Of a stretch of 64,000 nt of DNA, positions 1,423 to 35,712 are shown in pieces. The notes below the pieces were generated by a model. The model was not told the origin of the DNA. It saw only the letters and a list, made by a program, of their open reading frames with translations, and made no database searches. Both the position numbers and the translations under genes were made by a program. The stretch comes from Eledone cirrhosa (lineage: Eukaryota), in assembly GCA_964016885.1 (NCBI GenBank), contig OZ024741.1, forward strand, positions 149,048,001 to 149,112,000, read 5' to 3'. Position 1 is the stretch's first letter; every line of letters begins with the position of its first letter.

Positions 1423-1499
1423 TATATATATATATATATTATAAAATAACAGGAAGCTGAACTGGTGTAATTCCTTAAAGGTTTATTATACTATGAACA

Positions 1500-1687
1500 A
1501 GGGCGGTGGATTGGCAGTATCGGTAGACGGTCAGACGCCATGCTTTGGCGTATAGAGTTACGGCCCTTGCCATTCTCAGTTCAAATCCCGCCGAAGTTAA
1601 CCTTGCCTTTCATCTTTACGGGGTCGATAAAATAAAATACCAGTAATGCACTGGATTTTTGCTGCCCTTGTGCCAAAAGTAGAAACA
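1500..1687 (+). mobile_element. tRNA-derived SINE inserted in the left arm
   Basis: A-box-like TGGCAGTATCGG, B-box GTTCAAATCC, central GCCTTTCATCTTTACGGGGTCGATAAAATAAAATACCAG. 15-bp TSD ATTATACTATGAACA (1485-1499 / 1688-1702). Absent from the right arm. Confidence 0.9.
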
Positions 1688-1690
1688 ATT

Positions 1691-1748
1691 ATACTATGAA
1701 CATTTCAATGACCGGGTTCAGTATGAATCCGGTGACATCGTCAGGTAT
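1691..1748 (-). ncRNA. Type I hammerhead ribozyme motif (left arm)
   Basis: Minus strand ATAC-CTGACGA-[31-nt stem II, ACCGG/CCGGT]-GAAA-TGTTCAT-A-GTAT; same sequence as 35604-35661. Confidence 0.75.
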
Positions 1749-2276
1749 TCGAATTTTAAGAAAGGAAGTTGAAAAGGCAGAGACAAAAAGGCGACCACAC
1801 ATTTAGCAGTTTTTAGTTCGGTCGGCCACCTTCAAATGACGACTACCAATTCTTCTTATGTCTTTCTGGTGAAGAGGCGTAAGCTTATAGTGTACTACTA
1901 CCACTCCGTCATGGACAGAGGCTAGCAGTGGGATCAGGTTACATTGAAGTTGGTCAGAAGTGATAAAAGTACTAAGAAGTATATTTTTTCAAAAAACATA
2001 TATCTTTAACAAAGCTATATATAATGGACGCCTGTACAGTATATTTTTCATTGTAGGGTCAGAAAATACGATTAACGATTAGAAATGTAAAATTTGTGTT
2101 TAGAATTAAAAGATGTCATTTAAGATGAGATTAGAAAAGTAAGATTTAGGTTTAAAATTGGGAGATTTAATTAAAGAATTTACAGAAGGAGGCGTTTATG
2201 AAAAGGTTAAGTGTATTATTGATAGTCACGATAAAGTTTCAGGGTAGAATATAAAGTTAAGACTAAGCCCATGTTA

Positions 2277-2792
2277 GGCGGTCAGTAACCAGCGACGTTG
2301 CGGACTCCCAGCCCACCCGGGGCCCAATGGCATGTCAACCGTTCCGAGTATTTTCGTCTACGGAAAGAAAGGGAAATTTATTTTTCCGAGCACTCCAGGA
2401 ATGTTAACTGTCTCAAGCGCAGGGGGTGCTAGCGGGAAGCCCGCCATCGTCAGCTGATCATCGTGTATACCAAACGATTCTTAGTTATTCACACTGGTGG
2501 GAGATTTAGTTAGAGTGCTAGTAGGAGGCATGATAAATTTTAAAGTTATCATTAAGCCTAGAATTTAAAAGTAGTGTTTGGCGGTCAATAACCGGTGGCA
2601 CGGCGGATTCCAAGCCCGCACAGGGCCCAAGGACGTAACAGCCGTTCCGAGTATTTTCGTTTAGAAGGTGAAATTTATTTTTCCAAGCACTCTAGGAAGG
2701 CCGATCGACTCGAGCGCCTGGCGTGCGATCGGGAAAGCCGCCATATCAGTCGGATCATCGCGTGTACCAAACGATTATTAGTAATTCACACT
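2277..2792 (-). repeat. Two diverged ~215-nt GC-rich modules inside the left arm (2277-2495, 2580-2792)
   Basis: Shared blocks GGCGGTCARTAACC, CCGTTCCGAGTATTTTCGT, GAAATTTATTTTTCCRAGCACTC and TACCAAACGATT..TTAG..ATTCACACT. Confidence 0.9.
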
Positions 2793-33200: not shown

Positions 33201-34029
33201 TGGGGTTGAGGTTGGGGTTAGGGTGAGTGTTAGGGTTAGGGTTGGAGTTAGGGTTTGGATTAGATTTGGGATTAGTGTTAGGTTTATGGTTAGGGTTAGG
33301 GTTAGGGTTACTTTATGGTTATGGTTAGGGTTAGTTTTAAGGTTAGGGTTTGGTTTAGGGTCCCGGTTGGTGTTAGGGTTAGGGTTAGGGTTAGGGTTTG
33401 AGTTTGCGTAGGTTTAGGGTTTGGGTTAGGGTTTGTGTTTGAGTCAGGGCTAGGGTTTTCGTTTAGGGTTAGTGTTTGGGTAAGGGTTAGGGTTTGGGTT
33501 TGGGTTTGGGTTAGAGTTAGGGTTATGTTTAGGGTCAAGGTTAGGGTTAGGTTTAATGTTAGTGTTAAGGTTAGAGTTAATGTTATGTTTAGTGTTATGG
33601 TTAGTGTTAGCGTTAGGGTTACAGTTAGTGTTATGTTAAGAGTTAGGTTTAAAATTAGTGTTCGGGTTAGGGTTAGGATTAGGTTTAATGTTAGGCTTAG
33701 TGTTAGCGTAATGTTATGGTTAGGGATAGGGTTACAGTTAGGGTTACATTTAGGCTTAGATTCAAGGATATGGTTATGCTTAATGTTCGTGTTACTGTTA
33801 GGGTTAGTGTTAGAGTTAGAGTTAGAGTTAGGTTTAGTTTTAGGGTTAGGGTTAGTTTTAGGGTTACGGTTAATGTTATGGTCAGGGTTTGGGTTAATGT
33901 TAGGGTTAATGCTAGGGTAAGCGTTAGGTTTAGGTTTAGGGTTAATGTTAGGCTAATGGTTAGTGTTAATGTCAGGTTTAGGGTTAAGGTTAGGGTTAGG
34001 GTTAGCGCTGGGGTTAATGTTAGGGTTAG
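2948..34029 (+). repeat. Interstitial telomere-like array, (TTAGGG)n with variant hexamers (TTGGGG, TTTGGG, TTAATG, TTAGTG, TTAGGT, TTAGGA, TTCGGG)
   Basis: About 31 kb of G-rich hexamers, all on the + strand; no CCCTAA block; most degenerate at the distal end. Confidence 0.98.
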
Positions 34030-34033
34030 TCTT

Positions 34034-34328
34034 ATCATCATCATCATTTGATTTTACATCCGCTTTTCCCTGCTTGCAAGGGTGGGACGGGAACTGATTC
34101 TGGCTTGATTTCTACAGCTTGATGCCCTTCCTAACACCAAACTCATTTACAGTGAGTGCTGGGTGCTTTTTTGCACCCAGCACTGTCATCTCATTTCTAC
34201 AGCTGAGTAAACTGGAGCAATGTGAAATAAAGTGTCTTGCTCAAATAACAACACATCATCCGGTCTGAGAATTGAACTCACAACCTTTCGATTGCAAGCC
34301 CAATGCTCTAACCACTAAGCTATGTGCC
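34034..34328 (-). mobile_element. Full-length tRNA-derived SINE with RTE-type (GAT)n tail
   Basis: Minus-strand head GGCACATAGCTTAGTGGTTAGAGC...GAGTTCAATTC (A/B boxes), body TTGAGCAAGACACTTTATTTCAC, tail ...GAAAAGCGGATGTAAAATCAAATGATGATGATGAT. The tail resembles the RTE 3' end at ~37645-37700. Confidence 0.88.
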
Positions 34329-34400
34329 TATTTATGTATTTCTTCAGTTTTCTCTCCATATATACTTATCCTTTTACTCTTCTGTTACCTAAAATTAACG

Positions 34401-35712
34401 ACCCTAGACTATTATTCTCCGTACCCTTATATCTGTTTATCTTTAATCACTCCCCATACCCACTCAGGAATCACACTACATATAACCCGGGTACTTGGGG
34501 ACTAAATATAGTATTCTTACTCATTTCATCAGATTTTGCCACTTTTAATCTTCACATCACGAGTGTGAATTACTAATAACCGTTTGGTACACGCGATGAT
34601 CCGACTGATATGGCGGCTTTCCCGATCGCACGCCAGGCGCTCGAGTCGATCGGCCTTCCTAGAGTGCTTGGAAAAATAAATTTCCCCTTCTTTCGGCAAA
34701 CGAAAATACTCGGAACGGCTGTTACGTCCTTGGGCCCTGTGCGGGCTTGGAATCCGCCGTGCCACCGGTTATTGACCGACAAACACTACTTTTAAATTCT
34801 AGGCTTAATCATAACTTTAAAATTTATCATACCTCCTACTAGCCCTTTAACTAAATCCCCCACCAGTGTGAATAACTAAGAATCGTTTGGTATACACGAT
34901 GATCAGCTGACGATGGCGGGCTTCCCGCTAGCACCCCCTGCGCTTGAGGCAGTTAATATTCCTGGAGTGCTCGGAAAAATAAATTTCCCTTTCTTTCCGT
35001 AGACGAAAATACTCGGAACGGTTGACACGCCATTGGGCAACGTCGCTGGTTACTGACCGCTAAACATGGGCTTAGTCTTAACTTTATATTCTACCCTGAA
35101 ACTTTATCGTGACTATCAATAATACACTTAACCTTTTCATAAACGCCTCCTTCTGTAAATTCTTTAATTAAATCTCCCAAATTTGAACCTAAATCTTACT
35201 TTTCTAATCTCATCTTAAATGCACATCTTTTAATTCTAAACACAAATTTTACATTTCTAATCGTTAATCGTAATTTCTGACCCTACAATGAAAAATATAC
35301 TGTACAGGCGTCCATTATATATAGCTTTGTTAAAGATATATGTTTTTTGAAAAAATATACTTCTTAGTACTTTTATCACTTCTGACCAACTTCAATGTAA
35401 CCTGATCCCACTGCTAGCCTCTGTCCATGACGGAGTGGTAGTAGTACACTATAAGCTTACGTCTCTTCACCAGAAAGACATAAGAAGAATTGGTAGTCGT
35501 CATTTGAAGGTGGCCGACCGAACTAAAAACGGCTAAATGTGTGGCCGCCTTTTTGTCTCTGCCTTTTCAACTCCATGGATTATATTCCTTTCTTAAATTT
35601 CGAATACCTGACGATGTCACCGGATTCATACTGAACCCGGTCATTGAAATGTTCATAGTATAATAAACCTTTAAGGAATTACACCAGACCAGCCTCCTGT
35701 TATTTTATAATA
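34401..35712 (+). repeat. Right arm of ~1.3-kb inverted repeat
   Basis: Reverse complement of 1437-2953 without the SINE. Contains modules 34562-34780 and 34865-35060 and the HHR at 35604. Preceded by ~70 bp of non-telomeric sequence (34329-34400) that the left arm lacks. Confidence 0.95.
35604..35661 (+). ncRNA. Type I hammerhead ribozyme motif (right arm)
   Basis: Stem I ATAC/GTAT; core CTGACGA 35608-35614; stem II with ACCGG/CCGGT and TTCA/TGAA; GAAA 35646-35649; near-palindromic stem III ATGTTCAT; predicted cleavage after AUA. Confidence 0.75.

What the first reader, a model, noticed from the sequence alone, without database searches (positions are those of the whole stretch)
1437..35712. 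31-kb telomere-repeat array bracketed by 1.3-kb inverted arms that each end in a hammerhead ribozyme
Seen: arms 1437-2953 and 34401-35712 are inverted copies with HHR motifs pointing outward, enclosing a one-polarity TTAGGG-variant array. They differ by substitutions, indels and a SINE, so they are not a trivially mirrored read. Known: HHRs mark the terminal repeats of Penelope-like elements, PLEs often insert as inverted pairs, and Athena/Terminon PLEs have 5' ends capped by telomeric repeats and HHRs at their 3' ends. Read on its HHR strand, the left arm has that layout: (CCCTAA)n, body, HHR. Inference: either a non-autonomous ribozyme-bearing element family tied to telomeric DNA, or the scar of a break inside an inverted PLE pair that was telomere-healed and later rejoined.
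Basis: partly seen in the sequence, partly recalled or inferred. Interest (0 to 1): 0.85.

Follow-up and report, generated by a model that had tools for sequence, protein, structure and literature searches.

The report
Telomere repeats inside an inverted retroelement
A 31-kb run of decayed telomere-type repeats sits between two back-to-back sister copies of a common non-coding jumping element, likely because a break in that pair was patched with telomere repeats that later grew; it is a one-off scar, not a telomere-seeking element family.

Summary
The two copies are sisters (2.0% apart; at least 7.2% from 24 others). They face head-to-head, sit in (TA)n and carry the 3' tail at one end only, as 23 of 25 other inverted pairs do, so they are likely one insertion. 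The array starts in register at an internal TAGGGT of the left copy; the right copy and 94 other genomic sites run on past that site, and only this one has TTAGGG there. None of about 105 other element loci touches a telomeric tract, and 16 chromosome ends hold no copy, so the Athena/Terminon reading fails. At least nine other decayed interstitial TTAGGG arrays exist without this element. Best reading: a break in the pair was repaired with microhomology-primed TTAGGG, rejoined, and grew by local duplication. Open problem: the array is 12-18% off TTAGGG while the arms differ by 2%, so an older array joined to the pair remains possible. The hammerhead is a plausible dimer-type type I motif, untested. 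No read spans the unit.

The parts
1437..2953 (-). Left copy of a non-autonomous PLE-type element: tail-less 3' end in (TA)n at about 1419-1440, 5' side cut at the internal TAGGGT
   Evidence: reference positions 585-1864 of a 2003-bp unit
1500..1687 (+). SINE-like insert in the left copy, 15-bp target duplication (1485-1499 / 1688-1702); later than the pair
   Evidence: sequence read directly; repeats elsewhere at 84-91%
1691..1748 (-). Type I hammerhead-like motif of the left copy (predicted, untested)
2272..2796 (-). Two copies (2272-2499, 2575-2796) of an internal GC-rich module, predicted long stem capped by a three-way junction
2948..2953 (+). TAGGGT shared by element and array: in-register microhomology at the left seam
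2948..34029 (+). One-polarity degenerate TTAGGG array, about 5190 units, 43% perfect among parsed units, with internal duplications at offsets of 0.4-4.8 kb and unique edges
34030..34329 (-). tRNA-derived SINE with (ATG)n tail at the right seam, internally deleted relative to relatives
   Evidence: (tRNA-like head 34265-34322, 32.5 bits)
34330..35853 (+). Right copy of the element (reference 507-2003): runs past the TAGGGT site and carries the 3' tail (35713-35853), ending in (TA)n at 35855-35924
34558..35038 (+). The two internal GC-rich modules of the right copy (34558-34785, 34861-35038)
35604..35661 (+). Type I hammerhead-like motif of the right copy; predicted cut after the AUA at 35657

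Best explanation
Two head-to-head sister copies of a non-coding Penelope-like element, likely one insertion into (TA)n, flank a 31-kb TTAGGG array that likely began when a break in the pair was patched with telomere repeats primed on an internal TAGGGT of the left copy. Shown: family membership by architecture, sister status, one-ended tail, the in-register seam, loss of the left copy's 5' part, local duplications in the array. Inferred: that an autonomous PLE supplied reverse transcriptase and endonuclease; that the near-palindromic pair broke later; that telomerase, or copying from one of the genome's large TTAGGG tracts, extended the TAGGGT 3' end; that end-joining reconnected it to the right copy with the SINE at the seam; that unequal exchange and faster decay of G-runs made today's array.
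For: Arms 2.0% apart, at least 7.2% from 24 other copies, FastTree support 1.0; 35 shared changes from the subfamily majority, 17 absent from all 24 others. Tail at one end only in 23 of 25 other head-to-head loci (after setting aside 12 loci cut by 1.5-kb flanks); Craig et al. describe this layout for PLEs (PMC8557442, passages). An array-free analogue exists: L052, reference 507-2003 with tail facing 217-1864 without. All 19 of 28 other loci that reach the TAGGGT site continue as element; 94 exact sites with the ordinary continuation against 1 with TTAGGG. A 6-nt match to the telomere unit occurs at 3 of 1524 positions of the element's cDNA strand, about 0.2% for a random seam by hand calculation. 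G-rich strand runs away from that 3' end with one polarity, as Nergadze et al. report for repeats inserted at breaks, where deletions are the commonest flank change (PMC2246262, passages). TTAGGG is the telomere repeat here (pure 10 kb at the C5 end). A second array (C5:98.287 Mb, 12.3% off TTAGGG) abuts a LINE cut at its 3' side that is only 3.3% from its relatives' majority, so arrays that look older than their hosts are not peculiar to this locus.
Against: Age mismatch: the array is 11.9% (left edge), 12.9% (all) and 17.7% (right edge) off TTAGGG, while each arm has about 1% private change and is 2% (A/T sites) to 6% (G/C sites) from the subfamily majority. G-triplets in a LINE control changed only slightly faster than other G/C sites (118/1702 vs 612/10637), which does not supply the needed several-fold speed-up. 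Other inverted pairs of the family are 4-9% apart, so arm-to-arm conversion is not routine. No donor was found for a copied tract. No read or contig shown spans either seam or the unit. No autonomous partner was found.
Confidence: 0.52

Rival explanations
1. The array is older than the pair. The element arrived beside an existing decayed array, and the left copy was joined to it through TAGGGT, either as a second cDNA primed across the array or as a DNA-level copy of the right arm made during break repair, using (TA)n/TATTATA and TAGGGT as microhomologies.
For: Array 12-18% off TTAGGG against 2% between arms; both array edges lack close duplicates and a right-edge 27-mer is unique in the genome at up to 2 mismatches; at least nine other interstitial arrays exist; the 35 shared changes fit a copy of an aged genomic insertion.
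Against: The left end is exactly the family's natural tail-less end; a young pair from an aged source also occurs at L038 (terminal repeats 1.1% apart); the model needs two nicks 34 kb apart or a templated copy landing at the old edge with all intervening flank lost.
Confidence: 0.27
2. The repeats were added during the insertion itself: the growing cDNA of the left copy ended in TAGGGT-3' and was extended by telomerase, or the PLE reverse transcriptase switched to a C-rich telomeric RNA, before the two cDNAs were joined.
For: Polarity is right: the left copy's cDNA is the + strand, and its 3' end reads TAGGGT straight into TTAGGG. Switching to a transcript of a decayed array would explain an array born degenerate. 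PLE and telomerase RTs are sister groups (PMC8557442, abstract).
Against: Only 1 such seam in the genome at this site and 0 of about 105 other loci with a tract; 0 of 20 short tracts sampled on C1 lie in this element. Sequence alone cannot separate it from later repair.
Confidence: 0.12
3. Assembly artefact: the array or one arm is mis-joined.
For: No spanning read or contig was shown; long satellites are hard to assemble, so the 31-kb length may be off.
Against: No N in the window; a mis-join would not bring together sister copies with the one-tail layout; the flanks beyond the arms share only dispersed repeats, so they are not two haplotypes of one site; right-edge array sequence (33600-33768) is held in contigs of three runs of one sample at depth 6-9 (possibly the source sample).
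Confidence: 0.05
4. A telomere-linked ribozyme element family (Athena/Terminon-like), or an end-to-end fusion of two chromosome ends that carried the same subtelomeric element.
For: The left arm read alone has the order (CCCTAA)n, body, hammerhead; the four largest contigs are 379-443 Mb and carry very large interstitial arrays.
Against: No telomere association of the family; no RT frame; no polarity switch in the array; no pure run above 9 units; locus at 149 Mb of a 416-Mb contig.
Confidence: 0.04

Closest known systems
EN+ Penelope-like elements with pseudo-LTRs and inverted 5'-truncated partners (Craig et al. 2021, PMC8557442, passages read)
   Same: Partial tandems forming pseudo-LTRs, inverted 5'-truncated partner, tail at one end, (TA)n bias, non-autonomous derivatives are mentioned there for Chlamys.
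   Different: No ORF; tail is about 140 bp rather than 30-40 bp; has a hammerhead-like motif (Naiads lack it); carries an internal structured module; the pair is split by a 31-kb telomeric array.
PLE hammerheads (Cervera and de la Pena 2014, PMC4209133, part 1 of 4 and passages read)
   Same: Type I layout in the terminal repeat, short helix I (4 bp), long helix II, palindromic helix III that needs a dimer.
   Different: No extra base before a G10.1-C11.1 pair; helix II opens with U10.1-U11.1, a variant noted by Perreault et al. 2011 (PMC3088659, passage).
Short interstitial telomeric sequences inserted at double-strand breaks (Nergadze et al. 2007, PMC2246262, passages read)
   Same: [quoted passage not shown]
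   Different: 31 kb instead of a short tract; strongly decayed with higher-order duplications; invertebrate-type repeat landscape.
Athena/Terminon EN- PLEs (from the introduction of PMC8557442; the 2017 Terminon paper was not held, rest recalled)
   Same: Order telomeric repeats, body, hammerhead on one strand of the left arm.
   Different: Dispersed, (TA)n-targeted, no RT, no C-rich telomeric stretch beside the hammerhead, no presence at the chromosome ends examined.
Animal non-LTR retrozymes (bioRxiv 10.64898/2026.07.22.740005, part 1 of 5 read)
   Same: Non-coding, type I hammerhead, linked to PLE terminal repeats.
   Different: Unit is about 2 kb with PLE-style partial tandems and inversions, not short tandem arrays; one full tandem dimer seen (L054).

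Membership tests
Penelope-like element (non-autonomous, EN+ mobilised) | Pseudo-LTR: 3' end repeated in tandem at the 5' end | tested here: met
   59 exact tail-to-start junctions; L038 repeats 351 bp at 1.1%
Penelope-like element (non-autonomous, EN+ mobilised) | Inverted 5'-truncated partner with tail at one end only | tested here: met
   23 of 25 informative head-to-head loci; 29 of 37 with truncated loci included; the window pair conforms
Penelope-like element (non-autonomous, EN+ mobilised) | Insertion bias for microsatellites | tested here: met
   All 29 tail ends printed run into (TA)n-type sequence; both window ends too
Penelope-like element (non-autonomous, EN+ mobilised) | Hammerhead motif in the terminal repeat | tested here: met
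   Core intact in 92 of 121 ungapped copies; pair II.2 kept as GU 69, AU 39, GC 10; by sequence only
Penelope-like element (autonomous) | RT plus GIY-YIG ORF | tested here: not met
   No such frame in 18 fetched loci or in the first 1.5 kb after 30 of 59 tandem junctions; partner not identified
Athena/Terminon | Located at chromosome ends, attached to telomeric repeats as a family trait | tested here: not met
   1 vs 94 sites; 0 of about 105 loci; 0 hits in 16 contig ends of 10 kb, of which only 2 reach a telomere
Athena/Terminon | EN-less RT ORF | tested here: not met
Athena/Terminon | Reverse-complement telomeric stretch beside the hammerhead | tested here: not met
   None in 35560-35853 or in the 3' ends
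Type I hammerhead ribozyme | Core CUGANGA, GAAA, NUH with helices I-III | tested here: met
   AUA triplet in 112 of 121; helix III 8-mer AUGAUCAU 64, AUGUUCAU 39; U10.1-U11.1 in 118
Type I hammerhead ribozyme | Match to an Rfam hammerhead model | tested here: not met
   No hit at gathering score or at E up to 10; lowest-energy fold is not the hammerhead, z -1.8 and -1.2
Type I hammerhead ribozyme | Self-cleavage | not testable with these tools
   Needs an in vitro assay
Break-repair interstitial telomeric insertion | In-register microhomology and single polarity | tested here: met
   6 nt; no CCCTAA
Break-repair interstitial telomeric insertion | Empty orthologous site in a relative | not testable with these tools
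   No relative genome is held; sister arm and L052 serve only as proxies
Fusion-type interstitial telomere | Head-to-head polarity switch between two telomeres | tested here: not met
Non-LTR retrozyme | Tandem units each with a type I hammerhead | tested here: inconclusive
   One full tandem dimer at 2077-bp spacing (L054); most copies are partial tandems or short 3' ends

The most novel reading that the evidence does not exclude
Telomerase captured a retrotransposition intermediate: the truncated cDNA of an endonuclease-mobilised PLE ended in TAGGGT, was extended with telomere repeats mid-chromosome, and seeded a 31-kb interstitial satellite. PLE insertion would then be a route by which interstitial telomeric satellites are born, with the sister arm as a built-in empty allele and clock showing that such arrays decay several times faster than neighbouring DNA.
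Probability: 0.12. Interest if true: 0.7.

Novelty: new variant of a known kind. Interest (0 to 1): 0.35.

Why it matters
It removes the exciting reading (a telomere-seeking ribozyme element) and leaves a well-marked scar: a large interstitial telomeric array whose start point can be read to the base because the sister copy shows the sequence before the event. With an orthologous site it would test whether such arrays are born at breaks and decay fast, or are old and get joined to new neighbours. It also uncovers a large radiation of non-coding PLE-type elements with a conserved hammerhead-like motif and an internal structured module that Rfam does not know.

Tried and rejected
Telomere-linked family: rejected. 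Chance pairing of two unrelated copies: rejected by the tree, with the caveat that only 40 of 2381 candidates were scored. Two haplotypes mis-joined: rejected, flanks not homologous. Donor array for a copied tract: none found among 40 of 3044 candidates (best 84%), by a 27-mer at up to 2 mismatches or in 214 kb of other arrays. A 4-bp remnant of a target duplication at the seam SINE: dropped, since four close relatives show no clear duplication and one has the same four letters. My guess that the C5:98.287 array sits inside an otherwise unbroken LINE: wrong, the far side is unrelated. Autonomous partner: not found. SECIS or other known RNA for the internal module: no Rfam hit. Pfam gave nothing for four neighbouring ORFs; PDB only weak RT hits. 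Earlier scan notes: none for this genome. Literature: no paper held all of Penelope, inverted repeat, telomerase and chromosome healing; three unrelated papers for octopus, interstitial telomere and fusion; the Terminon paper was not held.
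Full report
Observation. The described parts are in the sequence. The arms align at 94.9% over 1286 columns plus a 63-bp outer piece. The left arm holds a 188-bp SINE-like insert with a 15-bp target duplication. A single period-6 array spans 2948-34029, with TTAGGG on the + strand, no CCCTAA, and no perfect run above 9 units. 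The window has no N and lies at 149.05 Mb of a 416-Mb contig in a 3.0-Gb genome. The repeat landscape looks cephalopod-like to me; that is recalled and untested.

The arms are not a unit of their own. A search with the left arm gave 2381 candidates, of which 40 were scored; the best other copies are 90% identical. The right copy runs from 34330 to 35853. Full units are about 2.0-2.1 kb, have their 3' end repeated in tandem upstream (59 exact junctions; L038), end in (TA)n (29 of 29 tail ends printed) and show no RT or endonuclease frame (18 loci; first 1.5 kb after 30 of the 59 junctions). Many have an inverted, 5'-truncated partner. Among 37 distinct head-to-head loci, 29 have the 141-bp tail at one end only; 12 of the 37 were cut by short flanks, and of the remaining 25, 23 conform. 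Craig et al. (PMC8557442, passages read) give this layout, a one-ended tail and microsatellite bias as PLE traits. I therefore call the family a non-autonomous PLE-type element; its autonomous partner was not found.

The two copies are likely one insertion. They differ at 25 of 1244 bases (2.0%); the nearest of 24 other near-full copies is 7.2% away (4 shorter loci were left out), and the pair has support 1.0. They share 35 changes from the subfamily majority, 17 of them absent from all 24 others. The left copy ends at the tail-less position and the right copy has the tail. L052 (C1:132.878 Mb) is the same structure without an array: a tailed copy cut at reference 507, the position where the right arm here also begins, faces a tail-less copy reaching 217, joined directly.

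The telomeric repeats are not a family trait. The array begins at TAGGGT (2948-2953), an internal site. The right copy and all 19 of 28 other loci that reach this site continue as element. An exact pattern finds 94 sites with the ordinary continuation and 1, this one, with TTAGGG. None of about 105 distinct element loci fetched has three telomere units within 300 bp. No copy lies in 16 contig ends of 10 kb, two of which reach TTAGGG tracts, one of them pure for 10 kb. Athena and Terminon elements attach to telomere overhangs through C-rich stretches beside their hammerheads (PMC8557442 introduction; the 2017 Terminon paper was not held); none of that is present.

The seam is microhomology-guided. 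On the element's cDNA strand a 6-nt match to the telomere unit occurs at 3 of 1524 positions; by hand, about 0.2% for a random seam and phase. The G-rich strand runs on from that 3' end, which is the polarity telomerase needs. Nergadze et al. (PMC2246262, passages) found in-register bases at about 75% of mammalian insertion sites, with deletions the commonest flank change. At the right seam a ~300-bp tRNA-derived SINE separates array and right copy; its order relative to the array is not resolved.

The array belongs to a common class here. At least nine other interstitial decayed TTAGGG arrays were met: C1:27.3 (0.9 kb), C1:208.56 (36 kb), C1:217.8-218.1 (300 kb), C2:242-243.6, C3:184.6, C4:101.5, C5:98.287 (2 kb), C6:61.7 and C8:23.8 Mb, 7-14% off TTAGGG. 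The element was absent from every edge that I fetched; several edges were not reached. Twenty short tracts of 18-36 bp were sampled on the first 233 Mb of C1, none inside this element. Within our array, duplications at offsets of 0.4-4.8 kb, often 0.3-3% apart, cover most of the interior, while both edges are unique, so it grew in place.

The result against my reading is an age mismatch. The array is 11.9-17.7% off TTAGGG, each arm has about 1% private change, and the arms are 2% (A/T) to 6% (G/C) from the subfamily majority. Duplication alone cannot raise expected divergence (inference). Other inverted pairs are 4-9% apart, so conversion between arms is not routine, and G-triplets in a LINE control changed at 6.9% against 5.8% for other G/C sites. 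On the other side, the C5:98.287 array (12.3%) abuts a LINE that has lost its 3' part and is only 3.3% from its relatives, so the same mismatch appears at a second seam. Either such arrays decay fast or are born decayed by copying, or they are old and get new neighbours. No donor was found. I give break-and-patch 0.52, an older array 0.27, capture during insertion 0.12, mis-assembly 0.05 and a telomere-linked family or fusion 0.04.

The hammerhead. The motif reads AUAC, CUGANGA, a long helix II, GAAA, a helix III with a 2-nt loop, AUA, GUAU. In 121 ungapped copies the core is intact in 92; pair II.2 is kept as GU (69), AU (39) or GC (10); helix III is the palindrome AUGAUCAU in 64 and AUGUUCAU, as in both arms, in 39; helix II opens with U-U in 118. 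Short helix I, long helix II and a palindromic helix III that needs a dimer match the PLE hammerheads of Cervera and de la Pena (PMC4209133, part 1 of 4 and passages); the U10.1-U11.1 opening is a variant noted by Perreault et al. (PMC3088659, passage). Against: Rfam finds nothing, the lowest-energy fold is different, and core positions are only slightly more conserved than the rest (0.030 vs mean 0.055, median 0.033). Activity is untested.

An internal module. Each unit has two copies of a ~190-230-bp GC-rich module whose 23-nt core occurs 1087 times exactly, in subfamilies down to about 65% identity that share the same 3' end. Across 24 copies a long stem capped by a three-way junction has 20 of 60 pairs with two-sided changes against 13.1 +/- 2.3 in shuffles. 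The structure was derived from these sequences, they are related, and the core was fixed by my search pattern, so this is a lead. RNAalifold kept only the 21-pair cap, and 14 of 24 copies fold with z of -2 or lower on the sense strand.

Assembly. Contigs of three runs from one sample hold arm sequence and right-edge array sequence but nothing shown spans a seam. A mis-join is unlikely to unite sister copies with the one-tail layout, and the outer flanks share only dispersed repeats.

Verdict. Real, and a one-off meeting of known processes: an inverted PLE-type insertion, a telomeric tract joined at a microhomology, and satellite growth. I found no paper on this combination in one search; most subscription journals and all supplements were not seen. 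New variant of a known kind; interest 0.35.

Noticed in passing
window 45646-56960: A second inverted PLE pair, 98.3% identical (45660-47571 vs 56902-54984), with an RT-like frame (55050-56210; Atlas hits with RVT_1/GIY-YIG shares), tail at one end only, and a Gypsy-type LTR element (48222-53687, LTRs 99.2% alike) between the copies. Same layout as the finding, different filler.
   Followed up: partly
window 34558-35038 and L105-L134: Conserved internal module (long stem, three-way cap, AAUAAA in a hairpin loop) in a large radiation of non-coding PLE-type subfamilies; no Rfam match; moderate covariation.
   Followed up: partly
G000:C2:242.07-243.64 Mb; C1:217.83-218.13 Mb; C3:184.6-184.77 Mb; C4:101.5 Mb: Very large interstitial decayed TTAGGG satellites near the middle of the four biggest contigs or on an arm; candidates for centromeres or fusion scars.
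   Followed up: partly
L190:1000-1100 (C6:61.736 Mb); between L198 and L199 and in L200 (C8:23.83-23.87 Mb): Arrays with polarity switches, TTAGGG facing CCCTAA across a ~55-bp spacer at C6, the layout expected of fusions or inversions.
   Followed up: no
L188:6970-8810 (C5:98.287 Mb): A 1.8-kb array, 12.3% off TTAGGG, abuts a LINE copy broken in its RT region that is 3.3% from relatives.
   Followed up: yes
L166, L171 (C1:153.31, 175.22 Mb); L153, L154, L155, L173: Two other repeat families carry 3-6 TTAGGG units as built-in parts; one shows weak likeness to this element's tail, the other has them in inverted arms.
   Followed up: no
L064:8100-8720 (C1:217.828 Mb): The 300-kb array starts directly in a (TA)n-type tract that follows the 3' tail of the coding PLE family seen in the window.
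   Followed up: no
window 1-1437: 3' end of another PLE copy (endonuclease C-terminus and terminal repeat, 71-92% to the pair at 45646-56960); the left arm sits in its (TA)n end.
   Followed up: partly
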